From NCBI GenBank assembly GCA_021206555.1, contig JAJOKA010000227.1, positions 1 through 57,127 on the forward strand: DNA of 57,127 nt. The letters are read 5' to 3'. This document shows positions 24,633-47,115 of the stretch, piece after piece (within the stretch, counting starts at the first letter, position 1; each line of letters begins with the position of its first letter). This DNA comes from Candidatus Cloacimonadota bacterium (GTDB taxonomy: Bacteria > Cloacimonadota > Cloacimonadia > Cloacimonadales > Cloacimonadaceae). Under the pieces are notes generated by a model, which was not told the origin of the DNA, ran no database searches, and saw nothing but the letters and a program-made list of their open reading frames with translations. The position numbers and the translations under genes were made by a program.

Positions 24633-26743
24633 TTATTCTCCAATTTGCTCATTATCTACTACGATGAGGCTGAGATCTGCACGCAGCAAAAACTCAGCTT
24701 TGATCTTGGCCAATAGCGCGTAGCGGTTCGCTCTGAGAACCGCATCCTCGCAATTCACCAATACATCGTCAAAGAATGTATCGATCAATTTTCCATAGCG
24801 CACCAGATGCGCCAAAGCGCTTGCATAGTCCAGTTCTGTTAAAGCTCTGGAGATATCGCCACTCAATCCCAATAGTCCATTGTAAAGCTCGGTCTCTGCT
24901 CCTGCTTCCAATAAGGACGGATTCAGGTTCTCAAACAGAGAGTTGTCGGCAATGATATTGGCCACGCGTTTAAACCCAATCACCAGCCTGATAAATGATT
25001 CTTCTTTCTTCAAAGCGTCCAGGGCCCGAGCCCGGGCAATGAGATCGTCCAAAGAGCTATATGTGGTATGCATCACAGCTGCCACCACGTCGTAGGCGAT
25101 TCCCAGCTCTTTCATCAGCCAGACCACGCGTTGTTCAAAAAAACTTTTTGATCTTGTCTTCGGCTTCGGGTGCGAGCTGCACTTGCTCCCGCAAAACGGA
25201 TAGCGCGAAGCCGATCAAAGCCTCCGGATGGATGTTCCATTTGCGATGAGCCAGAATCTGAACCACTCCTCCGGCTGCTCTACGCAAGGCAAAAGGATCC
25301 GCAGAACCGGTGGGCAGCATTCCGATGCCGATGATGCCGCACACGGTATCCAGCTTATCGGCCACAGCACAGATCGCTCCACTGAGGCTTTGCGGTAAGT
25401 CATCATTGCTTCCACGCGGCATATAATGTTCATAGATGCCATCAGCCACTTCATGATCCTCGCCTGAAGCCAGAGCATACTGTTTACCCATATAGCCTTG
25501 CAGCTTGGTAAACTCCTTCTCACCCAGCATCAAAGTAACAAGATCCGCCTTGCACAACAGAGCTGTCCTCTCTGCTCTGTCCCTTGCGTCCGGGCTTAAA
25601 GCCAAGCTTTCACAAATGTGCGCGCAGAGCTTTTGCAGCCTGGCGGTCTTGGCTGCCAGAGTGCCCAATTGAGATTGGAACACCACGTCCTCAAGCTGTG
25701 ACACATAGCTTTCCAGGGGACGCTTGCAGTCTTCAGAATAGAACCACATCGCGTCTTCCAGACGTGCCCGCACCACTTTTTCGTTTCCACTACGGATGAG
25801 CTCTGAATATGCCGGATCGCCATTACTGATAAAGACGAACTTATTGGCCAGATTGCCGGCTGCGTCGTACACGGAAAAGTACTTTTGATTCTGGCTAATC
25901 GTGGAAGTGATAATTTTCTCCGGCAAGACCAGGAACTTATGCTCAAACTCTCCCACAACAGCGGTGGGGAATTCGATCAGGTTGCACACGGTATCCAGCA
26001 GCCTTTCATCTTCACCCACGCGGTAGGGCTGAGTATTGAAGATCTCGTCCAATTGCTTGGCGATCATGGCCTTGCGGCTTTCCCTCGCCGGCATTACCGC
26101 TGCATCCCGCAAGGTAGCTTCGTATGCGCTTGCATCCTTGATGATTAGCGCGGTATCCCGGCCCAGATAGCGGTTGCCGAAGCTTAATCGATCTGCTTTG
26201 ATCCCATAGAAATCCAGCTCGATCACGCTCTTGTCCCAGAGGGCTACAATCCATCTGATCGGTCTGGAGAAGCTCAGATTGGGATGTTGCCAGATCATCT
26301 TTTTGGGCATAGGGATTTGCGTGATGGCAGCAGGCATCCAGTCCCGCAGAAGCTCCATCGTCTCCTTGCCCTTTTGCACAAAGCGCGCGGCCAGAAAGTC
26401 CCCTTTCGGGCTATGCTCGATGAAGCTGTCTTCCTCACCGGCTCCCAGTTTCTTCAAAAAACCTTTTCCGGCTGGGCTCAATTCACCCTCAGCAGTATAG
26501 GCGATGCTCACGGCAGGCCCTGTTTTCAGGATTTCTGCGTCCTCCTGCTTATGGGGTAAGCCATGCAGCAATATCGCCAATCTCCGTGGCGTGCAGAAAG
26601 TATTCAGGCTTGCAAAGGGGAGGGCATTGGCCTCCAGCATCTTGATGAGCGATGTTTCCAGACTGCCGATGGCCGGCACTATCACATTGTCAGGTAGTTC
26701 TTCAGTTCCGAGTTCAAATAAAAATGAATGCAAGCGAATATAT
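24633..26743 (-). CDS. glyS: Glycine--tRNA ligase beta subunit (one frameshift)
   Basis: ORFs 25135..26808 and 24633..25127. They join as ..EDKIKKFFEQRVVWLMKELG.. if the A7 run 25137..25143 is read as A6. The FLFELGTEELP N-terminus suggests a TTG start at 26743 rather than the ATG at 26808 (uncertain). Confidence 0.8.
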
Positions 26744-26758
26744 CCTTCAGTTACTTGT

Positions 26759-27712
26759 TTAATAGTTGTATCGTAAGGTAAGCTGGTTGCTGATCCCCAA
26801 GTCTCCATAGGAAGCTACAGCGTAGTCCAGATCAAAATCTTTCACGTTCCAGCCCAGCCCCAGGGAAAGTCCACTGGTATAGGCCAGGATTCCACCCATG
26901 TAGTAATCTCCGGCATTGCTTTTGAAGCCACCACGAATGGCCAGCGCCGGATTCAGCTGATGCTCCACTCCCAATCGGGCAACGAAGTTTTCACCATTGG
27001 CTTTGCTGAGGTCAATTGCCCCCAATAGCTGATCATTTAACTGCATGGAGATTCCCGCAGTGTAGGTGGAAGGAAGCTTTTCAGAATGCTTGGCACTGCT
27101 GTAATAAGAGGATTGAAAGCCGATGTTGCGCGCGCTGAGCCCCACCTTGATCTTCTCATTCACCGTATGATGCAGGATCCCCAGATCAAGCATCACCGCT
27201 GAAGCGGAAGCGTCATCAATGGTATCGTAGATGAACTTCAGGCTGGCCCCCAAATCCAAAGCCGGACTGATAAAGCGAGCGGTGGATACCGAGGCCATCA
27301 GACTGTGAGCGCCAAAGCTCTCACCGGTTTCGATGAGTTCTCCGGTGGAGCTGATTTCCGTGCGATCAATGCTGCCACTATTCCAGTATCTAAGCCCTGC
27401 GCCCCAGGCCACAAAACGGTTTTTGGGTAACACATAGCTGATGCTTCCCCCTCCACTCCCGACCAAATGATCCATGAATGTAGTAGCAACAGAGCGGTTT
27501 GGTGCTTCCAGAATGGCAGCTGGGTTAAAATCCAAAGCGTCAGCATTTTTGGGGATACCGTTCACTGCTCCGGCCATCGCCGTGGTCCTGGCATTATAAT
27601 AGAGCTTGAGCGTGTCAAAGCCGGTGGTTCCGGCATGTTCATTCTGGGCAGCCAAAGGCAAGAGGCTAATCAGCCAGAGACTTGCCAATAATATCTTCAA
27701 TATCTTGCACAT
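26759..27712 (-). CDS. PorQ/PorV-family outer-membrane beta-barrel
   Basis: 317 aa. Signal peptide then FDTLKLYYNARTTAMAGAVNGIPKNADALDFNPAAIL, the family signature. Alternating beta-strand pattern ending ..QLTLRYNY. Confidence 0.6.
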   Translation of the reverse strand: MCKILKILLASLWLISLLPLAAQNEHAGTTGFDTLKLYYNARTTAMAGAVNGIPKNADALDFNPAAILEAPNRSVATTFMDHLVGSGGGSISYVLPKNRFVAWGAGLRYWNSGSIDRTEISSTGELIETGESFGAHSLMASVSTARFISPALDLGASLKFIYDTIDDASASAVMLDLGILHHTVNEKIKVGLSARNIGFQSSYYSSAKHSEKLPSTYTAGISMQLNDQLLGAIDLSKANGENFVARLGVEHQLNPALAIRGGFKSNAGDYYMGGILAYTSGLSLGLGWNVKDFDLDYAVASYGDLGISNQLTLRYNY

Positions 27713-28139
27713 AGGTATATAGCTCCTTATCTGTGCTTGCCCTCAATAGCAAATCCCGGTTTTTGTCCTCACGCAGATGTTGGGAAAGGCTGCGCAGAAT
27801 TTGCATATATTGATGGTTTGAGTTTTGGGGAACGGCGATGAGAAACACCAGATTCACCGGTTGACCATCTACAGAATTAAAGTCCATTGGGGTGGCCAGT
27901 TTGCACACAGCGATCCTCAAACAGCTCACAGTGAGGTCTCTGGCATGCGGAATGGCGATTCCGCGCCCAATTCCGGTGCTCATAATTTCTTCACGCCCTT
28001 TCACGGCCGCCAAATAGCGATCCGGAAAACTGAGGCATCCACTAGCCGAGAGCAGATCCGTCATGAAGTCCAGGCATTTGCCTTTGGATTCAAAACTTTC
28101 TACGATTTTGACCAGTTCCGGTTTGAAAAGTCTATTCAT
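27666..28139 (-). CDS. ptsN: PTS EIIA type-2 domain protein (nitrogen-regulatory PtsN-like)
   Basis: 157 aa with the phosphorylation-site motif GIGRGIAIPHAR. Confidence 0.7.
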   Translation of the reverse strand: MNRLFKPELVKIVESFESKGKCLDFMTDLLSASGCLSFPDRYLAAVKGREEIMSTGIGRGIAIPHARDLTVSCLRIAVCKLATPMDFNSVDGQPVNLVFLIAVPQNSNHQYMQILRSLSQHLREDKNRDLLLRASTDKELYTYVQDIEDIIGKSLAD

Positions 28140-28192: not shown

Positions 28193-29372
28193 TCAATCAA
28201 TTTTTCCCAACAGACGCAGGCTAAATGTGCTGCCGTGGTTTAGTTTACTCTCTACACTGATTTCGGCTGAGATCAGCTCGGCAAAACTCTTCACCAGGAT
28301 CAAGCCCAGGCCGCTTCCTGATTCATTCGCGGTGCCATACTGACGCAGTTCGTTGTCGATCCGAAAGATCTTTTGCAGATGTCTGCGTGAAATTCCGATA
28401 CCATAGTCCGTGACGGATATCTGGGGGGTCCCATTGTTGCTGCTGAGGCTTATCCTCACACTGCTTTTGGGGTAGGAATACTTCAGGGCGTTGGACAGAA
28501 GATTGCGCAGGATGGAAGAAAGCAGCCTCAGATCGCTTTCCACCATAAAGTCATGCTCTTGATCAAATTCGATGTTGATCCCCTTTTGCGCGGCAGCTTT
28601 GGCATAATGATCAATGGCATAAGAAACAGCTTTGGAGAGCGAAACAAACTCCTTTTGACACACCACCTGCCCGCTCTGCAACCTCGCCCAATCCAAAAGG
28701 TTTTCCAAAAGAGTGTAGATGCCTCTGGCTGCCGAATTTACCTGCAGCATGGCATCCTCGATCTCACGTTTGTCAAAGCTGCCAAAGTTCTCAGCGATGA
28801 ATTCTGACAGTGAGATGATGGCATAAACGGGATTCTGCAGGTCATGAGCCAATAGCGAGAAGAAGCGATCCTTGGTGGCATTCAGCTCGATCATATCCTG
28901 CGCAGCTTTTTTTGAGATCATCCTCAGCTTTGCGGCGAGCGGATACATCGATGATGAAGCCATCCAGATATACCGGAGTATTGTGTTTATCATAGACGGC
29001 ATTGCCTTTTTCCCACACCCATTTGATCGTGCCGGATTTGGCGCGGATGCGATATTCCATCTGAAACTGGGTTCGATTCTCCACTGCTGTATCAATGGCC
29101 CGGCGCACAAAGTCGCGATCTTCCTCCACGATGATATCATCGTAACACAGAAGATGATTCCCCACCAGATCAGAGGCAGCATAGCCGGTAAGCTCCAGGG
29201 AGCCTTCAGATAGAAACACCATTGACCACTGGGCGTCATTCTTACAGCGGTAAGCCATGCCCGGCAAGTTGTGCATCAGATTCGGTATTAATGCGCCGGA
29301 GATGCCTTGAACCTCGCTCGAAAGATGCTTTAGCTCGCTTTCTGGGTTTGTTGCGTCTTGCGTTTTTTCCAT
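28193..29372 (-). CDS. PAS-domain sensor histidine kinase (one frameshift)
   Basis: ORFs 28842..29372 (PAS: GMAYRCKNDAQWSMVFLSEG..YRIRAKSGTIKWVWEKG) and 28193..29239 (H-box FSLLAHDLQNPV; HATPase NLLSNALKYS, DYGIGI, GSGLGL). They join as ..DDLKKAAQDMIEL.. if the T7 run 28907..28913 is read as T6. Confidence 0.8.
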
Positions 29373-29565
29373 ATTTTGCTATTGTCCGAAGATCGCAAAA
29401 GATGTCAAGGATGAAATTGTTCATCGGCAACTGATCTTTTCTTTTCCCTGCATTACAGGGACTTTTGGCAGTGATTTGGACGGGTTGACTTGTAAACGAA
29501 GCTTGAGATATTATTGATGCGATCATCGTTTGAGAGCATCCGCAGATTGAACTCATGTTTACTCA

Positions 29566-29650
29566 CCTCGGTTTTTGCTCAGCTTTACCTCATGCTTCCC
29601 TCTTGATATGGGGAGATCATGAGGTAAAACCGAGCTGGATCCGAGCAAAA
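29566..29650. repeat. Compound hairpin, member of hairpin family H
   Basis: TTTACCTCATG (29584..29594) pairs with CATGAGGTAAA (29618..29628). Outer arms CTCGGT/ACCGAG and TTTTGCTC/GAGCAAAA. The right arm GGGGAGATCATGAGGTAAAAC resembles 8265..8285. Confidence 0.6.
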
Positions 29651-29677: not shown

Positions 29678-30919
29678 TTATCTCAGAATGAGGATCTTTC
29701 CTGTGCTGGTGCCGGTTGTGCCGGAGAATCTGTAGAAGTAAGTGCCGCTGGCCAGATCCGGCTCAAGACTGCTTTCTGCATGGGCATTCAGGCGTTTGGA
29801 GGCCACCATTTGTCCCTTCAGGTTATACAGCTTGAAGTCGCCTGAATCCGAGCTCATAGACTTTATTTGCAGCGCGTTACCCGCCCTTAGCGGTGAGGGA
29901 TAGACCTGAATCAGCGCAGGGAGTTCCGGAGCGATGTAGTCCACTGTGGAGCTGGCGCTTGCTTGCAACTTAATATCGGTGGGCATCATCCCCACTGTGA
30001 AGCTGCGCCAGTTACTAAGGTCCGGATGCAGTACTCGCACAATGGCATTGTCCCCCCAGTTTGGATCGAGCAATGCTATAAAATTGCTACTTCCTACAAG
30101 ATCAGACGCGGCAAAAGGCAGGGGGTTATCTCCGGAATTGAGTACAGTGAAGTCATTGGCATCATAGCTGTACAGGCTGTATCCGCTGCCATCTGCAACA
30201 TAAGCCCTGCCTGCGGCATTGATCCAGATGTTTCCCGGGCTTCCGCCTAAAGCGATGCTTTCCACCACCACATCAGTAGAGGGATCAACGATACTGATCA
30301 CACCGAATACATCAGTCCAGTTGCCTGTGCTGGAGACATGTAACAACCCATCGCGAAGAGTGATGAATTGCGGATTTGCTGGCATGGGGATCGTTTGCAG
30401 CACACTGAAACTCGCTAGATCGATCACCGATAGTGAGCTGCCAGCATAGTTATTGACATAGTTCCCCGCGTTGCAAACATACAATTTACCATTGCAGACT
30501 ATCATGTCCTCTGGGGCTGCGCCCACGAGCACAGACCCAAGCAACTGTCCATTCGCGGCAGCCATCTTATATACTCTGGAACTCATCAAGCCGCTGACAT
30601 AGATATACTCTTCATGCAAGATCGCGTCCCAGGGATTGCTGCCAATGGCCACAAAGTGATTGGCCACCGTGCTGCCACTGCTCTTTGAGATCTTCTGCAA
30701 GGAGTTGTCCCCGGAATTTACGGAATACAGATAGTCTTCAGTGACCAGCAGGCGGTTGGGCACATTACCCAATTGAGCAAAACTGTTGTTCACCTGATCC
30801 GTCGCCAGATCAATGCGACTGAGTGTGCGGGATTGGGAGTTTACCACATAAATGATCTGCGCGCCCAGGAAGATCGGGCTTAAGAGCAATATCAACAGGA
30901 TACTAAGTGTTTGTTTCAT
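29678..30919 (-). CDS. YVTN/YncE-like beta-propeller surface protein with a T9SS C-terminal sorting domain, under a cobalamin riboswitch
   Basis: The ATG at 30919 follows GAGGTGA. Signal peptide MKQTLSILLILLLSPIFLGAQ. Repeated blades (IIYVVNSQSRTLSRIDL, YLYSVNSGDNSLQKI, KLYVCNAGNY..LSVIDL, RAYVADGSGYSLYSY). C-terminus VYPSPLRAGNALQI..FKLYNLKGQMV..SGTYFYRF. Confidence 0.7.
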   Translation of the reverse strand: MKQTLSILLILLLSPIFLGAQIIYVVNSQSRTLSRIDLATDQVNNSFAQLGNVPNRLLVTEDYLYSVNSGDNSLQKISKSSGSTVANHFVAIGSNPWDAILHEEYIYVSGLMSSRVYKMAAANGQLLGSVLVGAAPEDMIVCNGKLYVCNAGNYVNNYAGSSLSVIDLASFSVLQTIPMPANPQFITLRDGLLHVSSTGNWTDVFGVISIVDPSTDVVVESIALGGSPGNIWINAAGRAYVADGSGYSLYSYDANDFTVLNSGDNPLPFAASDLVGSSNFIALLDPNWGDNAIVRVLHPDLSNWRSFTVGMMPTDIKLQASASSTVDYIAPELPALIQVYPSPLRAGNALQIKSMSSDSGDFKLYNLKGQMVASKRLNAHAESSLEPDLASGTYFYRFSGTTGTSTGKILILR

Positions 30920-30949
30920 GGTGTTCACCTCTAATAATTATTGTGACTC

Positions 30950-31165
30950 GAGATGAACTGCTTATCTTTTTGCGTCTCCTTCGCTCCGTGGATACGCCTA
31001 AAAATACTTGTTGGCAGGTTTCCTGGCTCGCAGCGGTTTGCCTTTTCGGCTTATGCGGTGCCTTCCCATCTCTATCAGAGACAGTGACACCGCAAACCTT
31101 TGTGCTGCATACAGTGGCGGAGGCCGCTTCATTTGATGAATTCCTATTACCTGTGTAAGCACCAT
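30950..31165 (-). promoter_or_regulatory. Cobalamin (B12) riboswitch, copy 1
   Basis: The minus-strand RNA reads ..GGTGC..AGGTAATAGGAA..AATGAAGCGGCCTCCGCCACTGTA..CACTG..TGGGAAGGC..GAGCCAGGAAACCTGCC. The B12 box is at 31013..31028. It is followed by an expression platform and the RBS GAGGTGA. Confidence 0.88.
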
Positions 31166-31344
31166 CAAGTCACGAAGCCATAGTTTTTGAGAGTGGGATT
31201 TTCGTCAAGTGAGGAAATACAGATTAGCTTCATACCCGACTCAACTCCGGGTACTTCAGGCACATTGATATGCAGTAATACTAGGTATAGAAATATGTGA
31301 GCTCAGCGATATCAATGAATGTGACATCAGACAAAAAAAAGACC

Positions 31345-31373: not shown

Positions 31374-31589
31374 GGTTTTAGAGTTGTAAAGGCAGTTTTG
31401 ATTAAACAAACTAATGGCTTCCTTTTTGCTGTCAGTTGATTCCGGTGACTTTTTTATGAAACAGCCGTAAGGCTGAATATAAACAAAGGAGATCAGAAAC
31501 AATGATCAACACTATTCTAAAAAGTGCCCCCCCCCCGCACACGAGGATTCAAAACGCGCCGGTTGCATGCATCAGTTCAGCAATGCAGT

Positions 31590-34425
31590 ATGATGAAAAG
31601 CATCACAAATAGTGCTCACGCAACAGTCCAGAGGCTTCATCGCTTGTATTGTTTCCCAGCTTTTGTACTCGTTGTCATACTCGTTTTGGGCATATCAGGT
31701 TTGGGAGCAGAGGAGTTCTACGTCGACGTAAATTCAAGCAATCCCAACCAGTCAGGATCAATCACCGAGCCTTTTCACTCAATCAATGCCGCCGTTCTCT
31801 ACATTTACAACGGTCACACACCCTTGGATAATGTTGCCGATATCTTGATACTACCAGGAACCTATGTCGAGAACATTACTATTCGCTTTTCATATTACAC
31901 ATCCACGATAACGCTGTGGAACTTCCAAGCATATACGGGAGGTGTAACAATTATCGGATACACATTGGGTGACCCGATATTTTAGTGTGGAGTCGATGAT
32001 GGGATCAAGTGTGACCTTTCAAGATCTTGACTTCGCCACAACCTCCCTGCAGGTTAACAAGGCATTTTCGGTCACAGCCCCCAATATAATAGGAACTTTG
32101 AAGTTTAGTAATTGCAGTTTTTCGGGGTTCAAACATAGTATACTCATTACTGAGGTACAAGATTCCGAAGAAATAATGAATGTATCCAACTTCGAAGTAG
32201 CTGATTGTTACTTTGAAGGGATACATGAAGGCGGGGTCGGCATTTATACCTATGCACGAAGCGACGAGCTTTATGGGGAGGATTACCCTTTGTCCCCAAC
32301 ATCTCAATCCACAACAACACATTTAGCGATAATGGCATAACTCAACCGGCTCAGTATTATTCATACGAGTGCATCACCATAAGGAATTGGCGGAAGGTGG
32401 CCCCTGCTTATGAGCAGGTTCACATATTCGAAAATAGTTTTGAGGGCAGCACCGCAAATGTGTACCCATTCGGAGTGATTCTTGACAGACTTAACAGGCA
32501 GTACAATTGGTTTTCGCAAATAGCGTGTAAAGCCTTTGTCTATGATAATGTATTCATGAATCATCGTGTGCTTGCTGATATCTCAAAACTAAAGTTTACT
32601 GATAATCAAGCCGAGATCACCCAAAACTGCTCCCCTGTCCTTTCTTACTTTTCAGTATCTATCTACTGAAAGCGAGACTCACGCAGACACACTTTGGACA
32701 GAGCGCAATATCGTCCACGCCCCACACGCATATTCGCTGTCCCATGCTATACTCAAGGACAAGCAGAACTCATTCTTTGGTAGTGAGAAATTTATAAATG
32801 CCAATGATAGCCATGCCAGTATTGAGAATAGTCTCGTCAACGGATATAGCCAATACTTCGGGCTTACGGGGCTGAGTGCAGTAAACACAACTCACAGCTA
32901 CTACGATGTATTGGAAAACAACAACCTGGTGACTTATGAGAATTGTCTATCCCAAGTGGACCCTTTGATAAGCCATCATTCGACGGGTTTGGGGTATAGT
33001 TTGCTATGGAATAATGACAATCGTAGTCCACTCATAATGGCAGGCATTGGCACTACCGGAGCAATGGGGCAATCTACACGAAATGACAGATTGGACATTG
33101 GCGCAGTCCAATATGACGAGTACCCGCATGAATACATCACCTACACATTCCCTTCCTATTCTCAGAGAAATGGTTTGAAATGGATGAGTTTCCCCAGTTT
33201 GGACAGGATTTGGAACCCGACGACAGATGATCCTGATGTGGCTCAAGTGTTCTTTGAACCTATAATTGATGAAGATATTCTTGATCAAATAGCTTGGAAA
33301 GTTTTGGATGATGCAGCCGAGGATATCCACTTTGTTACTGGGCAAGGCTGGCAAGGAGACATGTACCATAACATAATCCCCCAGCAGGGCTATAAGATCC
33401 AAATGGCGCAAGGGCTTCAGGATCCGCAAAACATTGCGGTGCCAGGATTAATCCCCATCGTAAGTCAGAATCCTCTAAGCATCAAGGCAGCATCTGCAAG
33501 CAAAGCCGTTGATATCGGGAATGAAAACTGGTTGGGCTATTTCCATGAAACAACTGTGGAAGCTGCGGATGCCTTCGAAGGAATCATTGATAATCTATGG
33601 AGCATCCAAACCCAAAACTGGACGATGGTGAGGGAAGACATGGTTCCCGGCAGTCCCTGGATATACGCGCTACAACATGGCAAGGATCCAGTTCTGAGTT
33701 ATGGAGATATGGTGATCGTGAAGTGCTTTGAGGATGCCCAATTTTATTGGAACACCGCTGCGCTTGAGCAGATACCACTTGAAAAAGAGCTTCCCGACCA
33801 CTTCGATTTTGAAGAGAAGCCGGATTACATCCCATTCTACGTGGAACTGGACGCAAATGATCTACCCCGCGAGATTGCTTTGTATGTGGATGATGTATGT
33901 AAAGGGGCGGCTGTAGTAAACGACAGTTTCGTGGAAATCCCGGGCTATATTGTGGATAATCCTGATCCAAATGCCGAAGTGGAGATTCGTGCATTATACG
34001 AGAGTAAAGCCGCAGTGCATCTTATCCCAGAGTTCAGAGTGTGGAATCAGACCCAAGGAATCTATGAGAGCAAACCCATAATCCTGAACAGCAAAGACTA
34101 TTATTACAAATTGAGATTAGCAAGTAGTGAAGAGGATAGCCCTGTTACTCCGGAGCCTGGCCTACAGGTTTATCCCAATCCCTTTAATCCCAGCACTACG
34201 ATCAAGTTTAGCCTTCCCGCCTCGGGAGAGATCCAGCTTGATATATACAACCTGAAGGGACAACTGGTGTGCAATCTGGCCAAAGGTGAGCTAATGTCTG
34301 GAAAGCACAGCATTGTGTGGGACGGCACCGATAATCAGCATAAAAAGGTAAGCAGTGGATTGTATTATAGTAAATTGAGCTATCAAAACACAAGCTTCGT
34401 CAAGAAAATGGTAATGCTTAAATAA
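31590..34425 (+). CDS. Right-handed beta-helix surface protein with a T9SS C-terminal sorting domain (at least 3 frameshifts)
   Basis: ORFs 31524..31985, 31969..32340, 32397..32669 and 32911..34425; the last frame is open back to about 32640. Start MMKS at 31590 with signal segment FPAFVLVVILVLGISGLGA. ITEPFHSINAAV..ILILPGTYVENITI parallels the next gene. C-terminus VYPNPFNPSTTIKFSLPASGEIQLDIYNLKGQLV..WDGTDNQHKKVSSGLYY. Confidence 0.6.
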
Positions 34426-34435
34426 GCAGTAATTT

Positions 34436-34476
34436 CAGTTCAGGTGCCGTTGCTTAGTAGCTCGGCATCTGAACTG
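34436..34476 (+). terminator. 14-bp stem hairpin downstream of the stop; possible terminator but no U-tract
   Basis: CAGTTCAGGTGCCG-13 nt-CGGCATCTGAACTG with one G.U pair, starting 11 nt after the stop at 34425. Confidence 0.35.
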
Positions 34477-34523
34477 GATTAGAAAATAATCCCGAATCGA
34501 ATAGTCAGGATCGAGGTGAAACT

Positions 34524-36890
34524 ATGAACCTTAAAAAAAGCATCCATAAAATGCTACTGCTAATGATGATAACCGTATTGAGCCCAAACTTGGGCCTGGC
34601 CCTAACCCATAGAGTGGCTATGGATGGCAGCCAGCCTTTTAGCCAGATTCAGGATGCGGTAAGCGCTGCTGCCGATGGCGATACTATATTGGTGTATCCC
34701 GGCAGATACATCGAAAACGTGGACTTCAGCGGGAAAAACATCACCATTGCAAGTCTGGAGCTGATTACAGGCAATCCGTCCTACCGGGACAGTACCATCA
34801 TTGATGGCAACAATAGCGGATCCGTTGTAGAATCACTAAGCACCTTGCAAAGTGCCGGAATCTATGGTTTTACAATCACCAGAGGCTCGGGATCAGCCAT
34901 AACCTATTATCAAGGTGTCCAGATGAACTTAGGTGGCGGCATAGCCGTGCATAACGCAAGTTCATTCTACGTAGCGAACTGCATCATTGAGCACAACCGT
35001 GCTGATTGGGGTGGTGGACTTATGCTCTATCGCAGTACCGTTTACGCCAAAGACACCATAATCAGAGACAATTGGGCTACGATTGGGGGCGGAATTCATC
35101 TACGTAATCATGGCCGGATTGTCTTCGATCAAGTAGATCGCTGCAGTGTGTATAACAATACTGCGGGCACCGGGCAAGACATCATTGGCACAGATACCCG
35201 GCTGGAGACCAATATCTATCTGGATATGGCGACAATTTATCCCACTACAGATTACTTCATATTTTATTCCCGCAGTGTTCCAGAAGGGGTGTGGCCGGGT
35301 GGCTTTCCGGTAATCGACATCCAAAGAGGCTTCACCAGCGAAATCAACCTGGATATTTACGTCTCGCCCCATGGCCAGGATGATAACGACGGCCTAAGCC
35401 CGTCTACGCCAATGAGAAGCATCTATCGGGCATTGCAGATGGTTGCTTCGGACAGCCAATACCCAAAAACGGTTCATCTTGCACAGGGAGTTTATTCCAC
35501 CACTGAGGGTCAGTTCTTTCCCATCGGGATGAAGCCCCATGTGAAGATACTGGGAGATGCAGAGCATTGGCCGATTCTGGAAAATCTTGCGTATAGGGAG
35601 ACCATCACCGGCTCCCGTAGCCACAATGCCACAGTGGAAAACATCAGCATAGACTACGGAGATAATGATGAAGGGGCACAAGCAATATCAATAGGAATGT
35701 CTGACCAAGCTAAACTCAAGAACATCATCATTTTGCCGCATCAATCGAATACTTGGAAGGGGATTGGACTTGGGTCCAATACTAACTACCCTGTTGCTGT
35801 CTATGTAGAAAACGTGCACATTAGCGGTCAAACATCAAGATTCAATGCGGGCTTGATGCTCCACACTCTTGATGCAGAGGTGAGAGGCTTAACCATTGAT
35901 GATTGTCATGCCACCGGTAATCTATATGAGAGCCCTTACTCAATATTCTACCACCGCGGCAACAAGCTGACTATAGAAAATTCGCAAATCATCAATAGTA
36001 GCCTGCTCAACTATAATGCCGCAGTAGTTAGCATAGGTATGTCGCGCAGTGATTCCAACAGCCGCTTAATCATGAATAATGTACTTGTGGCCAACAATAG
36101 CAGTGGCAGTGAATCTCCGGTTTTCATTTCTGCTTTCACTGATTCAACCTCACGGATTAGCAACTCCACCTTCGCCAACAACCGGGGTGGATATTATGCT
36201 GCGACACTGAATGGTAATCTTCAGGTATCAAACTGTATATTCGATAATGACAGTCCTTCGGAGATTCGGGTAGAGAACAACAATCCTGATTTCACTTCCT
36301 CGCATACTTATAATAACAACTTTATCAGAGGCTATCCCCAAAGTTTGTCTTCGGTTGCCCTGAATCTGATTAGTTTCAACGATATTGTGCTAACCGGAAA
36401 TCCGGGCTTCAGTAGCGATTTGGCAAATGACCCTCTCTCCTACCGCCTTAGCAATGGATCTATCTGTAGAGATATGGGAACTCCCGATACCACAGGCCTA
36501 TATCTACCCGAAGTGGATTTGTATGGCAACCAACGTGTATTTGGCTCAGCTATCGATATTGGCTGCAACGAATGGAGCCATCCGGTGAGCCTTGAAGATC
36601 ACATGATTCCCATAGGCTTGGCAGTTTCGGCCTATCCCAATCCCTTTGTGGATGGGGTGAGCATCGGCTATAACCTGGATAAAGCGGCAAGGGTGAAGCT
36701 GCAAATCTACAACCTGAAGGGGCAATTGGTTCGAACTCTGGTGAAAAATACTCAAAGCAAAGGAGAGCAGCTCAGCGTGTGGGAAGGCACTGATGACAAA
36801 GGCATTGAAGTATCTGCGGGCATATATCTGATCCGACTATCCGTGGATGACAATCCTCCGGGTCTCTCCAAGCTGATTAAAGTGAAGTAA
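34524..36890 (+). CDS. Right-handed parallel beta-helix repeat protein with a T9SS C-terminal sorting domain
   Basis: 788 aa, intact. Signal peptide. QPFSQIQDAVSAAADGDTILVYPGRYIENVDFSGKNITI. Many GGG/NN-rich helix turns. C-terminus AYPNPFVDGVSIGYNL..VKLQIYNLKGQLVRTL..WEGTDDKGIEVSAGIYLIRL. Confidence 0.75.
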   Translation: MNLKKSIHKMLLLMMITVLSPNLGLALTHRVAMDGSQPFSQIQDAVSAAADGDTILVYPGRYIENVDFSGKNITIASLELITGNPSYRDSTIIDGNNSGSVVESLSTLQSAGIYGFTITRGSGSAITYYQGVQMNLGGGIAVHNASSFYVANCIIEHNRADWGGGLMLYRSTVYAKDTIIRDNWATIGGGIHLRNHGRIVFDQVDRCSVYNNTAGTGQDIIGTDTRLETNIYLDMATIYPTTDYFIFYSRSVPEGVWPGGFPVIDIQRGFTSEINLDIYVSPHGQDDNDGLSPSTPMRSIYRALQMVASDSQYPKTVHLAQGVYSTTEGQFFPIGMKPHVKILGDAEHWPILENLAYRETITGSRSHNATVENISIDYGDNDEGAQAISIGMSDQAKLKNIIILPHQSNTWKGIGLGSNTNYPVAVYVENVHISGQTSRFNAGLMLHTLDAEVRGLTIDDCHATGNLYESPYSIFYHRGNKLTIENSQIINSSLLNYNAAVVSIGMSRSDSNSRLIMNNVLVANNSSGSESPVFISAFTDSTSRISNSTFANNRGGYYAATLNGNLQVSNCIFDNDSPSEIRVENNNPDFTSSHTYNNNFIRGYPQSLSSVALNLISFNDIVLTGNPGFSSDLANDPLSYRLSNGSICRDMGTPDTTGLYLPEVDLYGNQRVFGSAIDIGCNEWSHPVSLEDHMIPIGLAVSAYPNPFVDGVSIGYNLDKAARVKLQIYNLKGQLVRTLVKNTQSKGEQLSVWEGTDDKGIEVSAGIYLIRLSVDDNPPGLSKLIKVK

Positions 36891-36912: not shown

Positions 36913-39129
36913 TTATCTGAGAGAATAGCTCAGCTTGAGCCCGGTAGCCCAATTGAAGCCCGGTTGCGGGATATATGCATATATTTCGTAGCGCTGATTG
37001 AGGATGTTGGCCAGCCGCGCGTCCAGCATCAGTTCGAAACGATAGATGCGGAATTTGTGCATCAAATCCAGATCCAGATTGGAAAACCCGGGCAAGGGAT
37101 CAATGAGATTATCCACTGTGCTGTATTGCTCTCCGGTATGGTTCCAGTTTATGGTTACTGCGCGTGATTCATCAGCCAGTTTGAGTGCCAGTTGGGATTT
37201 CAGCCTGGGTGTGTAGGTGAGATGTTTGCCATAAGTGGCCGAAGGGCTGCCATCTTCTTTTATGGAAAAATCTTTAGCTTCAGTGAGCGTGAGACCGCCT
37301 TTTACAGACAGCAAGCGGGATAGCTGCCATTGACCGCTCAGTTCATAGTTCGTGATCCGGGCCTTCCCCACATTAAAAGGCTTCCAATGGCTGCCAAAGA
37401 GGAATATCTGTCGCCATTGGATCAGGTTCTCGATCTCGTTCAGATGGTAAGCAGCTTGCACTTGCCAGTTCTCGTGCTCCAAAGCGGCACGCAGGCTGTA
37501 ACCTTCGGAGATTTCGCTTTGTAACTCAGGATTACCCATGGTCTCACTATCCCCGATCCAATACATGTCATACAAAGATGGCAGCGAAAAAGCGGTTCCA
37601 TAGCTTGCGCCCAAGCGGTATTTTAGGCTAGCTTGATAGCTGAAATCCTGTTCTGCCCGCCAGGAATCGTGCACTTCAGAATCCGCGTAATCACGCCTGA
37701 GCGAGAGCTGGGAATACCCTTGCACAAAGGATAGACCATACTTCTGACCGGCACGGAGGCCAAGCGCAAAGTTATCGCGTTCACCCTTGCTGGTGGTGGA
37801 GCCTGACCCATACACATTGTGTTGGGTGAAGTCGTATGTCAAAGCCTTGTATTCCGTGATGCCTTCCAGGCTGCTTTGTCGCCACATCCAGCTTAGCCTG
37901 TCCTGCACTCCAATGTTGATTTGCGCCTGGGCATAATGGCTGGGATTAAGGGGGTTGGTGGAAGCCAGATTGCGAAAGCTGCTGCCATCGCTTTGGTGAA
38001 AGATCTGCGCTTCATTGCGTAACTCGCCCCTCTGCCATTGGTGCTTGAGAGTGTGATAGCTGTGCGAACCGCTGAGGCGGGAATCGTCGTACAAATCAGG
38101 AAAGTTGATCGGGCCCGGCAATTGGCGGATAAAGGAACCCAATCCGAGTGTGTATTCCAGGTTCTGCTTGCCGCTGTGGAAGGCTGTTTTCAAAAAAGAA
38201 GTTATCCGCTGTTTTCGCGTTATGCTTTCTGCTATAGGAGTTTCCGGGATCCCACCAGGCATCATAGGAAAAGTCGTTTCTCGCGAAGTAATGCTCATAG
38301 TTTACCCGCAAAGTCCATGCTTTTTGCAGATACGAGAGCTCATACTGCTGTCTGGCCATGGAGTATGATCCGAAACTGCTATGCGCGTTTATGTCCAGGC
38401 CTCTGCGCGTAGAGGACTCTTGGTGACGATGTTGACGATGCCACCGATGGCGGCAGAGCCAGCGTAGGCAGAGGAATTGCCTTTGATAATCTCGATGCGT
38501 TCGATCTGAGTCGCGGGAATCTTGCTAAAATCAAAGGCTTCGCCAGCAGCGTTTAAGGCCACTCCATCCAACAGCACCAGAGTGTAGGCGCGATAGCGAT
38601 CCCCAAAAAGTGATATCGTTTGCCGCTCCCCCAAAAGCCGGTTATCAGAGCTACTGAATGAGCTGGTGTCCAGCAGCAGGTCAGCCCCGCTTCTCGTGGC
38701 AGAATTGGTATCTGAATAGATCAGTTCAGTATCCAAAGCCGGGGTCGCGCTGCGATACTCCAGTTCGCGCACCCGGATCAGAGGATGGACGAGCTCCGCC
38801 CTCTGCAACACAATCGTGTACTGAGCAATATCTTTCAGGCTAAGGCTAAGGTCATTATAGCCCAAACGCGAAAAGGATACTCTTTCAGATCGGCTGCTGA
38901 CGGCTACCTTTCCCTCCGAGTCTGACACAGCCGTGCCTCCGGCATGCGTGACCCGCACATTGTCAAGGGCTTTGCCCTCGGGATCAAGCACTTGCAGTTC
39001 AATGAGTTTTGCGCTCAAAGGAAGCATAATGAGCAGTAAAATCAGGCTTGCCATTAGGACTTTCAGCCTGGACTTTAACAGCTTAAGCGGCAGGATGCCG
39101 CTTCCACATTCGAGTTCCTGTCTTTTCAT
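36913..39129 (-). CDS. btuB: TonB-dependent receptor, BtuB-like by riboswitch context (frameshifted)
   Basis: ORFs 38389..39129 (CarboxypepD_reg-like LIELQVLDPEGKALDNVRV, plug ..IERIEIIKGNSSAYAGSAAIGGIVNIVTK) and 36913..38298 (beta-barrel). It lies immediately downstream of cobalamin riboswitch copy 2. The ATG at 39129 follows GAGGTGA. Confidence 0.65.
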
Positions 39130-39159
39130 TTGTTCACCTCATCTTGTTTATTGTGACTC

Positions 39160-39370
39160 GAGATGAACTGCTTTTTCACGTCTCCCTCGCTCCGTGGATA
39201 CGCGTCAATACTTGTTGGCAGGTTTCCTGGCTCGCAGCGGTTTGCCTTTTCGGCTTATGCGGTGCCTTCCCATCCCTTTCAGAGACAGTGACACCGCAAA
39301 CCTTTGTGCTGCATACAGTGGCGGAGGCCGCTTCATTTGATGAATTCCCTATTACCTGTGTAAGCACCAT
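39160..39370 (-). promoter_or_regulatory. Cobalamin (B12) riboswitch, copy 2
   Basis: 39148..39378 aligns with 30937..31173. The roughly 165-nt aptamer core differs by only 2 substitutions and 1 indel, and carries the same B12 box and GCCACTG core. Confidence 0.88.
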
Positions 39371-39541
39371 CAAGTCACAGAGTGCACGGAATTCGGGCAT
39401 GCCGGTACTGTCAAGCAGATTCCGCGCTTCCCGATTGATAATTGAATTGACAAAAAGAGGACATCCCTGAGTTTGGCACGATTGGACAAATCTGTGAAAG
39501 ACAACTTGATGCATGTGTAAAACAAAAAAGATATATACTGA

Positions 39542-46433: not shown

Positions 46434-47115
46434 ATATCCGTACGTTTGCATGAAGGATTGAGTGCATGTGTACAGCCTGAGCCCTGGAAGGGCGACAGAC
46501 CATAGCGAGGGGTGTGAACCCCTTGTTACGCAGTTCAAAGATGTGGTTCAGCCCCGGAGGGACGACAGGGATTCATTGATTCGTTATGGGTATGGGGGCG
46601 GGGTTTTGTGTCGCCCATGAAGGGCTAAATGGTATATTAATGACTTGTTACGAGGGGTTTCGCTTCGCTCCACACCCTCGCTATGCTCTGTCGCCCTCCG
46701 GGCTATTGGTAGCTAAGATTTCATAAGATCCGTAGTCTTTCCTCGTAGCATCGGAATAGTGCGTTACGTTGTTGCGCTTGTCAGGAGAGCAGATAGGGCG
46801 CTGGATTGTTCGCCTCAGACTTAGCCTATGCTTAGCCCATAATCACTTCATGCTACGAGGAGATCATGGGGTAATGCAGGAGTAACGATGACCTCAGGCA
46901 GCGAGTTCACCTCAAGGCCAGAGGATTCGATGCGTCTGTTCCACCCCAAACTTCGCTTCGCTCCGCCTTGGGGACCCGGGCGGTGTCAAAACGGAACGGA
47001 GTTTCGTAAAAGTAAGCAGCTGCGCTGCTTGTGCAGACGAGACGTCTGCAATCCTAGCGCTCTACCCTTTCATCTTAGGTATTCAAAGACGACCTTTGAT
47101 TAATTCCCGCTTGGT
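46434..47115. repeat. 680-nt convergent intergenic region packed with REP-like hairpin modules
   Basis: GCCC-N4/5-GGGCGACA modules at 46481..46498 and 46551..46568 (+) and at 46607..46625 and 46688..46703 (-). CATAGCGAGG modules at 46501..46525 (+) and 46651..46685 (-). GGAGCGAAGCGAA-loop hairpin at 46944..46973. Family-H hairpin at 46832..46874. Twin 7-bp hairpins at 47014..47049. Confidence 0.7.
47014..47049 (-). terminator. Twin 7-bp hairpins; possible terminator of the cls-addBA operon
   Basis: On the minus strand, GCAGACG-tct-CGTCTGC, then AAGCAGC-gca-GCTGCTT followed by ACTTTTAC. It lies about 70 nt past the stop at 47116. The U-tract is weak. Confidence 0.35.

What the first reader, a model, noticed from the sequence alone, without database searches (positions are those of the whole stretch)
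29678..31173. Cobalamin riboswitch controlling a T9SS-anchored beta-propeller: candidate new B12-capture surface protein
A canonical B12 riboswitch (B12 box at 31013..31028) sits directly upstream of a monocistronic gene. That gene encodes a signal-peptide-bearing YVTN/YncE-like beta-propeller ending in a T9SS sorting domain.

Established knowledge: B12 riboswitches control cobalamin uptake and salvage genes, and in Bacteroides a surface beta-propeller lipoprotein (BtuG) captures B12 for BtuB.

Inference: this propeller is a functional analogue displayed through T9SS rather than lipidation. It would deliver corrinoids to the riboswitch-controlled TonB-dependent receptor 6 kb away. I cannot judge from sequence alone whether it is homologous to BtuG.
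Basis: partly seen in the sequence, partly recalled or inferred. Interest (0 to 1): 0.7.

Follow-up and report, generated by a model that had tools for sequence, protein, structure and literature searches.

The report
Riboswitch-controlled BtuG-like B12-capture propeller, T9SS-exported
A Cloacimonadota bacterium keeps a secreted beta-propeller protein under a vitamin-B12-sensing RNA switch, and this protein is a distant relative of BtuG, the B12-capturing surface protein so far reported only from Bacteroidetes; here it has a type IX secretion tag instead of a lipid anchor.

Summary
A cobalamin riboswitch (Rfam RF00174, 63.9 bits) lies at 30996-31181(-), with the B12 box exactly at 31013-31028. 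It is directly upstream of a 413-aa gene (29678-30919, -) that encodes a signal peptide, a 7-bladed YVTN propeller and a T9SS type-A C-terminal domain.

A family profile hits B. thetaiotaomicron BtuG1 at E=4e-20. hhalign against BtuG1-like (DUF5074) proteins gives 99.7% probability over the whole propeller. In a Foldseek search of the PDB, ranks 2-17 are all BtuG structures.

In 80 Cloacimonadota genomes, 66 homologues follow a cobalamin riboswitch: 57 directly and 9 through a btuB operon.

More distant relatives from Marinimicrobia, Armatimonadota and unassigned metagenome contigs carry lipoprotein, T9SS or dockerin-like anchors. They usually sit directly downstream of btuB under a riboswitch.

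The leader carries a conserved, covarying hairpin that sequesters the Shine-Dalgarno sequence. The same leader is duplicated in front of btuB.

My verdict is a new variant of a known kind. The held papers I read call BtuG exclusive to Bacteroidetes.

Corrinoid binding and surface retention are untested, and the loop carrying BtuG's DMB-stacking Phe is missing.

The parts
30996..31181 (-). Cobalamin riboswitch aptamer (RF00174) in the 5' leader of the propeller gene
   Evidence: cmscan 63.9 bits against gathering score 31.5, E=1.6e-13, full-length model match.
31013..31028 (-). B12 box (AGCCAGGAAACCTGCC)
   Evidence: Read directly from the sequence. These columns are invariant in the alignment of 55 leaders.
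31167..31173 (-). GUGACUU, the 5' flank and 5' strand of P1; complementary to the loop of the SD hairpin
   Evidence: Helix 1: 7 pairs, 5 of them with changes on both sides, 89.5% of cells paired. It overlaps P1 (CUUGAUGG) as aligned by cmscan.
30923..30958 (-). Expression platform: 9-bp hairpin GUUCAUCUC (30950-30958) / GAGGUGAAC (30923-30931) that buries the Shine-Dalgarno sequence. The loop holds GAGUCAC (30943-30949).
   Evidence: Present in the MFE fold and in the RNAalifold consensus. 94.2% of cells paired with 3 compensatory pairs across 55 leaders; both helices together 92.2% paired against at most 44.7% when slid. No terminator found.
29678..30919 (-). CDS, 413 aa plus stop: BtuG-like beta-propeller with T9SS C-terminal domain
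   Evidence: ORF. 100% identical to P0001, which was read on 19 contigs. AF2 model mean pLDDT 91.9.
30860..30919 (-). Signal peptide MKQTLSILLILLLSPIFLGA, with predicted SPase I cleavage before Q21; no lipobox cysteine
   Evidence: Sequence inspection. Helix 2-17 in the model. The cleavage site is an inference.
29954..30859 (-). Seven-bladed YVTN beta-propeller (residues about 21-322), homologous to BtuG
   Evidence: hhalign 99.7% against BtuG1-like DUF5074 proteins over residues 22-318. hmmsearch of the PDB gives BtuG1 E=3.7e-20. Foldseek TM-score 0.74-0.81 to BtuG1/2/3.
29681..29905 (-). T9SS type-A C-terminal sorting domain (residues 339-413), after a disordered linker (323-332)
   Evidence: PF18962 28.3 bits (cut-off 27) and TIGR04183 42.2 bits (cut-off 23). 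Present in all 36 aligned family members. The family profile matches PDB 8GLJ_D, a C-terminal sorting domain, at E=1.4e-9.
39200..39386 (-). Second cobalamin riboswitch, upstream of btuB. About 97% identical to the first from P1 through the SD hairpin.
   Evidence: cmscan 73.5 bits. Pairwise alignment.
36913..39129 (-). BtuB-like TonB-dependent receptor. It is broken by indels in this record but is an intact 737-aa gene in other assemblies of the same species.
   Evidence: Plug and barrel Pfam domains, with TIGR01779 (TonB-B12) as the best NCBIfam hit. Two in-frame TAA codons. Intact in L081 and L082. A 1-nt deletion relative to L081.
26759..27712 (-). PorV/PorQ-family T9SS outer-membrane protein
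   Evidence: NF033709 113.4 bits (cut-off 90); best match is PorQ, E=6.9e-38.

Best explanation
The gene encodes a corrinoid-capture protein of the BtuG type. It is made only when the cell is short of B12.

Regulation (inferred logic, helices supported): when cobalamin binds the leader aptamer, helix P1 closes. A conserved 9-bp hairpin then occludes the Shine-Dalgarno sequence and translation stops. Without B12, the 5' strand of P1 can instead pair with the loop and base of that hairpin. The same leader, with the same platform, controls btuB, so both genes respond together.

Export (domains shown, fate inferred): the protein crosses the inner membrane by Sec and is exported by the type IX secretion system through its C-terminal domain. 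It is either attached to the cell surface or released nearby.

Function (inferred): one face of the seven-bladed propeller binds corrinoids and hands them to the TonB-dependent receptor BtuB, as BtuG does in Bacteroides.

Shown here: the riboswitch; the covarying platform helices; homology and fold similarity to BtuG; the T9SS domain; and the conserved linkage of the family to btuB and cobalamin riboswitches in several phyla.

Inferred: corrinoid binding, surface retention, hand-over to BtuB, and the polarity of the switch.
For: Riboswitch: RF00174 at 63.9 bits, with the B12 box.

Homology to BtuG: a single-sequence phmmer search hits BtuG1 (8PTD/8PTF/8BLW_B) at E=1.2e-4, 24.6 bits. That is about the score BtuG1 gives against BtuG2/3 (22-26 bits). 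The family profile gives BtuG1 E=3.7e-20 and BtuG2/3 1e-12 to 1e-14, against YncE 1e-3. hhalign gives 99.7%, E=1.2e-26, over 291 columns covering the whole propeller. The AF2 model has pLDDT 91.9. Foldseek ranks 2-17 are all BtuG.

Linkage in 80 Cloacimonadota genomes: 57 have the riboswitch directly upstream. Nine more have riboswitch-btuB-propeller or riboswitch-ABC ATPase-btuB-propeller. Six have riboswitch-btuB-riboswitch-propeller.

Linkage in more distant relatives from metagenomes: 32 of 41 loci scanned with Rfam have a same-strand upstream cobalamin riboswitch. 47 of 66 loci with enough upstream sequence have a BtuB-like receptor ending at most 450 nt upstream.

Leader: the btuB and propeller leaders are about 97% identical, platform included. 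Covariation supports the platform helices: 92.2% of cells paired against at most 44.7% when slid, and 0 of 500 shuffles reach the observed score.

T9SS: the C-terminal domain is in all 36 aligned members, and a PorV/PorQ-family gene lies 2 kb away.

Binding-site positions: four polar contacts of BtuG1 named in bioRxiv 10.1101/2024.02.16.580637 could be placed. Residue 139 (called Glu139 there; Gln in the deposited chain), R141, R244 and E249 align with N95 and T198 (both invariant in the family), W97 and D203. These sit in the motifs NPW and TGNWxD.
Against: No binding data exist for any member of this family.

The five-residue loop SEGLF of BtuG is deleted in this family. That loop holds Glu55, Gly56 and Phe58 in BtuG2, and Phe60 in BtuG1, which stacks on the DMB base. 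Of the four BtuG1 polar contacts I could map, only two are conservatively kept.

The window protein stays below Pfam's DUF5074 cut-off (20.7 against 27.2 bits).

The best PDB hit by sequence and by fold is a generic archaeal YVTN S-layer propeller, 1L0Q. BtuG1 itself also hits 1L0Q better than it hits BtuG2. So the sequence homology is at the level of the YVTN superfamily.

One paralogue clade of 5 loci has neither riboswitch nor btuB.

The fate of T9SS cargo in Cloacimonadota (anchored or released) is unknown.
Confidence: 0.7

Rival explanations
1. The biochemistry is the same but the cell biology differs. T9SS releases the propeller into the medium as a diffusible corrinoid scavenger, working like a haemophore, and BtuB recaptures it. 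It is not a cell-attached lid.
For: Type-A C-terminal-domain cargo is released rather than anchored in some T9SS organisms (my own background knowledge, not tested here). There is no lipid anchor. In this subclade the gene has its own riboswitch and, in the window, lies 5.7 kb from btuB. Relatives carry interchangeable C-terminal modules, including dockerin-like ones.
Against: In Bacteroides the BtuG-BtuB interface is large and stable (PMC10404256), and the ancestral gene order here is btuB-propeller, which fits a physical complex. Many relatives are lipoproteins and therefore cell-bound.
Confidence: 0.2
2. The propeller is an accessory of the B12 receptor but does not itself bind corrinoids. 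It might be a structural cap, a docking site for corrinoid-carrying proteins or vesicles of other organisms, or a shield against phages and colicins that use BtuB.
For: The BtuG loop bearing Glu/Gly/Phe is absent, and half of the mapped contacts differ. The conserved NP and GN[WY] motifs are partly structural signatures of YVTN blades.
Against: The nearest characterised relatives all bind B12 on the same propeller face, although BtuG1 and BtuG2 share only about 24% identity and about 60% of contacts (bioRxiv 10.1101/2024.02.16.580637). Co-regulation by B12 and adjacency to btuB across phyla fit substrate capture best.
Confidence: 0.08
3. The protein is a generic secreted YVTN propeller with an unrelated function, and its position behind a B12 riboswitch is incidental.
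For: YVTN propellers are very common: 101,587 cluster representatives reach E<=0.001. Source annotations give unrelated names such as streptogramin lyase and YncE.
Against: 66 of 80 homologues are riboswitch-linked, and the linkage to btuB and the riboswitch persists in relatives of only about 25-50% identity from other phyla. The full leader, platform included, is shared with btuB.
Confidence: 0.02

Closest known systems
BtuG1/BtuG2/BtuG3 of Bacteroides thetaiotaomicron (PDB 8PTD, 8PTF, 8BLW_B, 8BAI, 8BMY, 8PUJ, 3DSM; Pfam DUF5074)
   Same: Seven-bladed propeller with detectable sequence homology over its full length. Best characterised structural match. Encoded with btuB under a cobalamin riboswitch. 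Extracytoplasmic.
   Different: No lipobox Cys or lipoprotein export signal; instead an SPase I signal and a T9SS C-terminal domain. It lacks the SEGLF loop with the DMB-stacking Phe. It falls below the DUF5074 cut-off. It comes from Cloacimonadota, whereas BtuG is described as exclusive to Bacteroidetes (PMC6143338; bioRxiv 10.1101/2024.02.16.580637). In this subclade it has its own riboswitch copy.
Unnamed lipoprotein, T9SS and dockerin-tagged propellers next to btuB in Marinimicrobia, Armatimonadota and unassigned metagenome contigs (P0284, P0349/P0358, loci L086-L165)
   Same: Same motifs: NSGDN, G-NPW/Y, APEG, NPQ, LHV-CTG[ND][WY]. Same context of btuB plus riboswitch.
   Different: Only about 25-50% identity to one another. 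The anchor differs: about a dozen have a lipobox, 22-25 of 59 have a T9SS domain, and 8 of 59 have a dockerin-like domain. Most sit in the btuB operon rather than behind their own riboswitch.
E. coli YncE (PDB 3VGZ; NF052280, PF21783)
   Same: Seven-bladed YVTN-type propeller encoded next to a TonB-dependent receptor gene (yncD) (the gene neighbourhood is my background knowledge).
   Different: Much weaker match: E=1e-3 for the family profile, and 15.5 bits against a cut-off of 400 for NF052280. YncE is periplasmic and iron-regulated and binds ssDNA; it has no link to B12 (background knowledge).
Methanosarcina mazei S-layer YVTN propeller with PKD domain (PDB 1L0Q)
   Same: Top hit by sequence (E=1.1e-23) and by fold (E=1.3e-20). 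Propeller followed by an Ig-like domain.
   Different: The high score comes from the regular YVTN repeats. BtuG1 also hits it better than it hits BtuG2. It is archaeal and has no B12 context.
Class of cobalamin riboswitches that regulate translation by RBS sequestration (for example E. coli btuB)
   Same: Aptamer with B12 box, no terminator, and the RBS held in a hairpin that communicates with the aptamer.
   Different: Here the partner of the hairpin loop is the 5' strand and flank of P1 (GUGACUU), not the L5 loop as far as I can tell. Whether the two helices alternate or coexist as a pseudoknot is unresolved.

Membership tests
BtuG (B12-capture surface protein of Bacteroidota; Pfam DUF5074) | Seven-bladed beta-propeller fold superposable on BtuG structures | tested here: met
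   AF2 model pLDDT 91.9. Foldseek ranks 2-17 are BtuG1/2/3: target-normalised TM-score 0.74-0.81, rmsd about 3 A, about 335 columns.
BtuG (B12-capture surface protein of Bacteroidota; Pfam DUF5074) | Significant sequence homology to characterised BtuG proteins | tested here: met
   phmmer E=1.2e-4 to BtuG1. Profile E=3.7e-20 to BtuG1 and 1e-12 to 1e-14 to BtuG2/3. hhalign 99.7%, E=1.2e-26.
BtuG (B12-capture surface protein of Bacteroidota; Pfam DUF5074) | Passes the curated Pfam DUF5074 (PF16819) gathering score | tested here: not met
   20.7 bits against a cut-off of 27.2 for the window protein. 24 of 36 family members match at E<=0.01. A BtuG1 fragment passes at 32.6 bits.
BtuG (B12-capture surface protein of Bacteroidota; Pfam DUF5074) | Encoded with btuB and/or under a cobalamin riboswitch | tested here: met
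   Window: own riboswitch, plus riboswitch-btuB 5.7 kb away. 66 of 80 homologues are riboswitch-linked. btuB is the adjacent upstream gene in 23 loci.
BtuG (B12-capture surface protein of Bacteroidota; Pfam DUF5074) | N-terminal lipoprotein signal (lipobox Cys and export signal) | tested here: not met
   The N-terminus MKQTLSILLILLLSPIFLGAQ has no Cys. BtuG1-like sequences show ...ACDDLEDK. A T9SS C-terminal domain is present instead.
BtuG (B12-capture surface protein of Bacteroidota; Pfam DUF5074) | Conservation of corrinoid-contacting residues | tested here: inconclusive
   BtuG1 residue 139 (Gln in the deposited chain, called Glu139 in the paper) aligns with N95, R141 with W97, R244 with T198, and E249 with D203. 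The SEGLF loop (BtuG2 Glu55/Gly56/Phe58; BtuG1 Phe60) is deleted. No coordinates were available to inspect the pocket.
BtuG (B12-capture surface protein of Bacteroidota; Pfam DUF5074) | Picomolar-range binding of cobalamin, and a stable complex with BtuB | not testable with these tools
   Needs recombinant protein (ITC, SPR or GCI) and co-purification or complex modelling.
Cobalamin riboswitch (Rfam RF00174) | Covariance-model score above the gathering threshold, with the B12 box | tested here: met
   63.9 bits against 31.5. B12 box at 31013-31028.
Cobalamin riboswitch (Rfam RF00174) | Lies in the 5' leader of a same-strand gene, with an expression platform | tested here: met
   The aptamer ends 77 nt before the ATG. 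The SD-sequestering hairpin is conserved and covaries.
Cobalamin riboswitch (Rfam RF00174) | Ligand-dependent change in gene expression | not testable with these tools
   Needs a reporter assay or in-line probing.
T9SS type-A cargo | C-terminal sorting domain above curated thresholds, plus an N-terminal Sec signal | tested here: met
   PF18962 28.3 bits (cut-off 27) and TIGR04183 42.2 bits (cut-off 23). Signal peptide by inspection.
T9SS type-A cargo | T9SS machinery encoded by the organism | tested here: inconclusive
   A PorV/PorQ-family gene lies at 26759-27712 (113.4 bits against 90), and two further cargo genes with the sorting domain lie at 32911-36890. Core genes such as sprA and porKLMN could not be looked for in a 57-kb window. 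PMC11285876 lists Cloacimonadota among phyla that may have a T9SS.
YncE (E. coli-type) | Passes the NCBIfam equivalog NF052280 or Pfam PF21783 | tested here: not met
   NF052280 15.5 bits against 400. PF21783 24.2 bits against 27.1. The family profile reaches only E=1e-3 against PDB 3VGZ.

The most novel reading that the evidence does not exclude
BtuG-type corrinoid capture is not an invention of Bacteroidetes. It would be an old, modular system spread across the FCB group and beyond (Cloacimonadota, Marinimicrobia, Armatimonadota). The same propeller is fitted with interchangeable localisation modules: lipid anchor, T9SS domain or dockerin-like domain. In Cloacimonadota, T9SS would release it as a diffusible 'cobalophore' that scavenges B12 away from the cell and returns it to BtuB.
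Probability: 0.2. Interest if true: 0.75.

Novelty: new variant of a known kind. Interest (0 to 1): 0.6.

Why it matters
B12 is a keystone shared nutrient in anaerobic communities, and BtuG is the best understood device for competing for it.

The held papers I read state that BtuG, and lipoprotein-capped TonB transporters in general, are exclusive to Bacteroidetes (PMC6143338, PMC10404256, bioRxiv 10.1101/2024.02.16.580637). A 2026 review discusses BtuH and BtuJ beyond that phylum, but in the passages I read it does not discuss BtuG there (PMC13616437).

If this family binds corrinoids, three things follow:
- Extracellular B12 capture of the BtuG type becomes a widespread strategy. It would be present in the Cloacimonadota that are abundant in anaerobic digesters and in several uncultured phyla.
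- It would show that the propeller works with other anchoring systems.
- A divergent binding site without the Phe loop would help define what a corrinoid-binding propeller really needs.

It would also give hundreds of 'T9SS sorting domain protein' and 'YVTN propeller' entries a functional annotation.

Tried and rejected
(1) Selenocysteine in btuB. The in-frame stops, together with NCBIfam hits to selenocysteine-motif TonB receptors, suggested recoding. I rejected this. The stops are TAA and come from indels. Two independent assemblies of the same species have an intact 737-aa gene, and the window differs from L081 by 14 gap openings in 11.6 kb.

(2) btuB as a true pseudogene. This is unlikely for the same reason. 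The histidine kinase, a 944-aa T9SS cargo gene and glyS are also split in the window but intact elsewhere. A neighbouring ABC transporter gene looks frameshifted too.

(3) Riboswitch HMM. An nhmmer model trained on Cloacimonadota riboswitches worked for the 80 genome loci (checked by Rfam). It under-called riboswitches in other phyla (22 loci), so I used Rfam there.

(4) Search for BtuG sequences. Searching the large protein database with a BtuG1 fragment returned only truncated proteins of at most 317 aa. That was enough for a profile (A2) but not for BtuG2. As a result, BtuG2's contact list (Glu55, Gln93, Asn107, Ser131, Arg135, Trp149, Ser195, Gln219, Trp272) could not be mapped beyond the N-terminal loop.

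(5) Terminator scan. No intrinsic terminator was found after the aptamer or after the gene, so transcription attenuation is not supported.

(6) Literature. Searches for BtuG together with Cloacimonadota, Marinimicrobia, Armatimonadota or T9SS listed no paper mentioning BtuG among those shown. The library is incomplete, so this is not proof of absence.

Full report
OBSERVATION

Rfam cmscan of the whole window finds two cobalamin riboswitches (RF00174). One lies at 30996-31181(-), with 63.9 bits. The other lies at 39200-39386(-), with 73.5 bits. The gathering score is 31.5, and both match the full model.

Downstream of the first riboswitch is the ORF 29678-30928(-). The listed GTG start lies inside the Shine-Dalgarno sequence. 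The real start is ATG 30919, which gives 413 aa, 100% identical to database protein P0001.

The protein has three parts:
- an N-terminal signal peptide without cysteine;
- YVTN/YncE-like propeller repeats;
- a T9SS type-A sorting domain (PF18962 28.3 bits against a cut-off of 27; TIGR04183 42.2 bits against 23).

Downstream of the second riboswitch is a BtuB-like TonB-dependent receptor at 36913-39129. It has a Plug and a barrel domain, and its best NCBIfam model is TIGR01779, TonB-B12. The organism is a member of Cloacimonadota (names).

IS THE PROPELLER RELATED TO BtuG?

Sequence. A single-sequence search of all PDB chains hits 8PTD, 8PTF and 8BLW_B at E=1.2e-4. These entries are B. thetaiotaomicron BtuG1 bound to cyanocobalamin or cobinamide, and the BtuB1-BtuG1 complex (bioRxiv 10.1101/2024.02.16.580637; PMC10404256). 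A profile of 36 family members (A1) raises this to E=3.7e-20 for BtuG1. It gives 1e-12 to 1e-14 for every other BtuG entry (BtuG2, BtuG3, 3DSM). E. coli YncE reaches only 1e-3.

Profile against profile. I collected BtuG1-like DUF5074 proteins, which carry the Bacteroidetes lipobox ...ACDDxEDK. hhalign between the two profiles gives 99.7% probability, E=1.2e-26, with 291 aligned columns. The alignment covers residues 22-318, which is the whole propeller.

Structure. AlphaFold2 gives a confident model (mean pLDDT 91.9). It shows a propeller, a disordered linker at 323-332, and a C-terminal beta-sandwich. In a Foldseek search of the PDB, ranks 2-17 are all BtuG1/2/3. Target-normalised TM-scores are 0.74-0.81 and rmsd is about 3 A.

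The 1L0Q caveat. The top hit in both searches is the archaeal YVTN S-layer propeller 1L0Q. This is not evidence against the BtuG relationship. A BtuG1 fragment also hits 1L0Q (E=2.8e-9) better than it hits BtuG2/3 (1e-4 to 1e-3). The window protein scores against BtuG1 (24.6 bits) about as well as BtuG1 scores against BtuG2/3 (22-26 bits).

Honest limits:
- The homology sits within the large YVTN superfamily; 101,587 cluster representatives reach E<=0.001.
- The window protein is below Pfam's DUF5074 cut-off (20.7 against 27.2 bits).
- The family lacks the five-residue SEGLF loop. In BtuG this loop carries Glu55, Gly56 and Phe58 (BtuG2) or Phe60 (BtuG1), the residue that stacks on the dimethylbenzimidazole base.
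- I could place four named BtuG1 polar contacts. I matched the numbering through R141, R244 and E249; the paper's 'Glu139' is Gln in the deposited chain. They align with N95 (invariant), W97, T198 (invariant) and D203. Two are conservative changes and two are not.

Conservation of the binding site is therefore inconclusive.

COMPARATIVE GENOMICS

A scan of one genome per GTDB species returned 80 loci. All are Cloacimonadota except one bin labelled Armatimonadota.

An nhmmer model of the riboswitch was cross-checked with Rfam on 24 loci. The results are:
- 57 loci have a same-strand riboswitch directly upstream of the gene.
- 9 loci have it 2.3-3.1 kb upstream, with btuB, or an ABC ATPase plus btuB, in between.
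- 14 loci have none.

Of the 14 without a riboswitch:
- 2 have no upstream sequence at all.
- 4 have btuB immediately upstream; 2 of these are cut by the contig end.
- 5 form a single paralogue clade.
- 3 are scattered.

Six genomes show riboswitch-btuB-riboswitch-propeller. In a neighbour-joining tree the basal clades have the operon form and the derived clades have the propeller's own riboswitch. The window represents a further step. Two opposite-strand T9SS cargo genes now separate btuB from the riboswitch-propeller unit.

THE WIDER FAMILY

A full HMMER scan of 1.84 billion cluster representatives finds 485 with E<=1e-30. Among them are proteins of 336-374 aa that share the family motifs but have a lipobox cysteine and no C-terminal domain. 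Those that carry a name come from Marinimicrobia and Armatimonadota.

Eighty metagenome loci found with a profile of these proteins show the same context:
- 47 of 66 loci with at least 400 nt of upstream sequence have a BtuB-like receptor ending at most 450 nt upstream on the same strand.
- 32 of 41 loci scanned with Rfam have a same-strand upstream cobalamin riboswitch, usually in front of btuB.
- 39 of those 41 have one or both.

The anchoring module varies:
- about a dozen have a lipobox;
- 22-25 of 59 complete proteins have a T9SS-type domain (Por_Secre_tail or FlgD_ig);
- 8 of 59 have a dockerin-like domain.

The constant features are the propeller and the B12 context. That is the strongest argument for a role in corrinoid uptake.

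REGULATION

The two leaders in the window are about 97% identical from the start of P1 to the Shine-Dalgarno sequence. Their promoter regions and coding regions are unrelated. btuB and the propeller therefore share not only an aptamer but also an expression platform.

No intrinsic terminator is present. The MFE fold and the RNAalifold consensus show a 9-bp hairpin, GUUCAUCUC/GAGGUGAAC (30958-30950 with 30931-30923). It buries the SD four nucleotides before the ATG.

The hairpin loop holds (A/G)AGUCAC. This is complementary to GUGACUU (31173-31167), which forms the 5' flank and 5' strand of P1.

On an alignment of 55 leaders I counted both helices:
- 92.2% of cells are paired, against at most 44.7% with the partner slid by 1-3 columns.
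- 8 of 16 pairs have changes on both sides.
- 0 of 500 shuffles reach the observed covariation score.
- In some lineages the segment pair switches wholesale from GUGACUU/AAGUCAC to AGAAUA/UAUUC.

My reading is a translational OFF switch. Ligand-stabilised P1 uses CUUGAUGG, which competes with the loop pairing for five nucleotides. That releases the platform to form the sequestering hairpin.

The two helices overlap by only two nucleotides on the platform side. A ligand-dependent pseudoknot that coexists with the hairpin is therefore not excluded. The polarity of the switch is an inference from how B12 uptake genes behave generally.

EXPORT

The T9SS domain is present in all 36 aligned family members. 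A PorV/PorQ-family gene lies 2 kb downstream (113.4 bits against a cut-off of 90). Two further cargo genes with the sorting domain lie between the two riboswitch units. Cloacimonadota is listed among phyla that may have a T9SS (PMC11285876).

Whether cargo is anchored or released in this phylum is unknown. This is why the soluble-scavenger rival keeps about 0.2.

QUALITY OF THE WINDOW

In the window, btuB carries two in-frame TAA codons. Several other genes are split: the histidine kinase, a 944-aa cargo gene and glyS. A neighbouring ABC transporter gene looks frameshifted as well.

Independent assemblies of the same species (L081, L082) have btuB and those three split genes intact. The window differs from L081 by 99.1% identity with 14 gap openings in 11.6 kb. 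The breaks are therefore most likely assembly errors or strain-level damage, and the system should be regarded as intact. The propeller gene itself is intact and was read on 19 contigs.

COMPARISON WITH WHAT IS KNOWN, AND NOVELTY

It works like BtuG and is a remote homologue of it. It fails two defining features of the family as described: the lipoprotein anchor and the DUF5074 threshold. One feature, the contact residues, is inconclusive. I therefore file it as a new variant of a known kind, not as a member.

The held literature states that BtuG homologues are found exclusively in Bacteroidetes, based on BLASTP (PMC6143338). It also states that lipoprotein-capped TonB transporters seem exclusive to that phylum (PMC10404256). 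In the passages I read, a review from September 2026 discusses BtuH and BtuJ outside Bacteroidota but not BtuG (PMC13616437). The database names for this family are generic, such as 'T9SS type A sorting domain-containing protein', 'YVTN family beta-propeller' and 'streptogramin lyase'. I found no paper that describes it, but the library is not complete.

VERDICT
- Observation: confirmed.
- Function: inferred with about 0.7 confidence.
- Interest: 0.6. The finding extends a well-studied nutrient-capture system to new phyla and to a new export route, and it makes that extension directly testable. It remains a prediction by homology and gene context.

Noticed in passing
window 36913-39129 (btuB); also 28193-29372, 31524-34425, 39542-41252, 25135-26808: Several genes are broken by indels or in-frame stops in this record: btuB, a PAS histidine kinase, a 944-aa T9SS cargo gene, an ABC transporter and glyS. 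The first three and glyS are intact in other assemblies of the same species (L081/L082). Identity to L081 is 99.1%, with 14 gap openings in 11.6 kb. Assembly error is the likely cause.
   Followed up: yes
window 30880-31330 vs 39090-39540 (minus strand): The two riboswitch leaders are about 97% identical from P1 to the SD, while the flanks are unrelated. In the window and L002, within-genome identity of the btuB and propeller leaders (0.90 and 0.84) exceeds the between-genome mean (0.72). This suggests recent duplication or gene conversion.
   Followed up: partly
window 28193-29372 (-) and about 29550-29620 (-): A PAS-histidine kinase gene follows the propeller gene on the same strand in the window and in 11 close relatives, after a gap of roughly 300-400 nt. 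By eye, the gap contains a long inverted repeat (GCTCGGTTTTACCTCATG...CATGAGGTAAAGCTGAGC) with no T-run. Whether the kinase is co-transcribed, and so B12-regulated, is open.
   Followed up: partly
window 26759-27712 (-): A PorV/PorQ-family T9SS outer-membrane protein gene (NF033709, 113.4 bits) overlaps the end of a PTS IIA-like gene (27666-28139).
   Followed up: partly
window 46480-46525 (-); also L102/L103 2187-2232 and L108 971-1015: Acido-Lenti-1 sRNA (RF01687) matches just above the gathering score (38.1 bits against 37). The family also appears near propeller loci from other phyla.
   Followed up: no
window 32911-34425 (+) and 34524-36890 (+): Two T9SS cargo genes with FlgD_ig/Por_Secre_tail domains lie on the opposite strand between btuB and the riboswitch-propeller unit. 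One is a right-handed beta-helix/DUF1565 protein. In relatives such as L002 the two units are adjacent, so this looks like an insertion.
   Followed up: partly
L044, L052, L055, L057, L058 (GTDB loci): A monophyletic paralogue clade of the propeller family has neither riboswitch nor btuB. L057 comes from the same MAG as the riboswitch-linked L026. L055 sits next to a CRISPR array and a Fic-domain gene. Its function may differ.
   Followed up: partly
window 30857-30859 (residue Q21): The predicted signal-peptidase cleavage (LGA|Q) would expose an N-terminal glutamine. This recalls the 'Q-rule' described for Bacteroidetes SPase I substrates (PMC5837995). I have only this one case and did not test it.
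   Followed up: no
L129, L130, L137, L146, L157, L158, L070, L072: In some lineages the operon is ABC-transporter ATPase, then btuB, then propeller. In L070 and L072 the riboswitch precedes the ATPase. In the metagenome loci of this type no riboswitch was found within the flank.
   Followed up: partly
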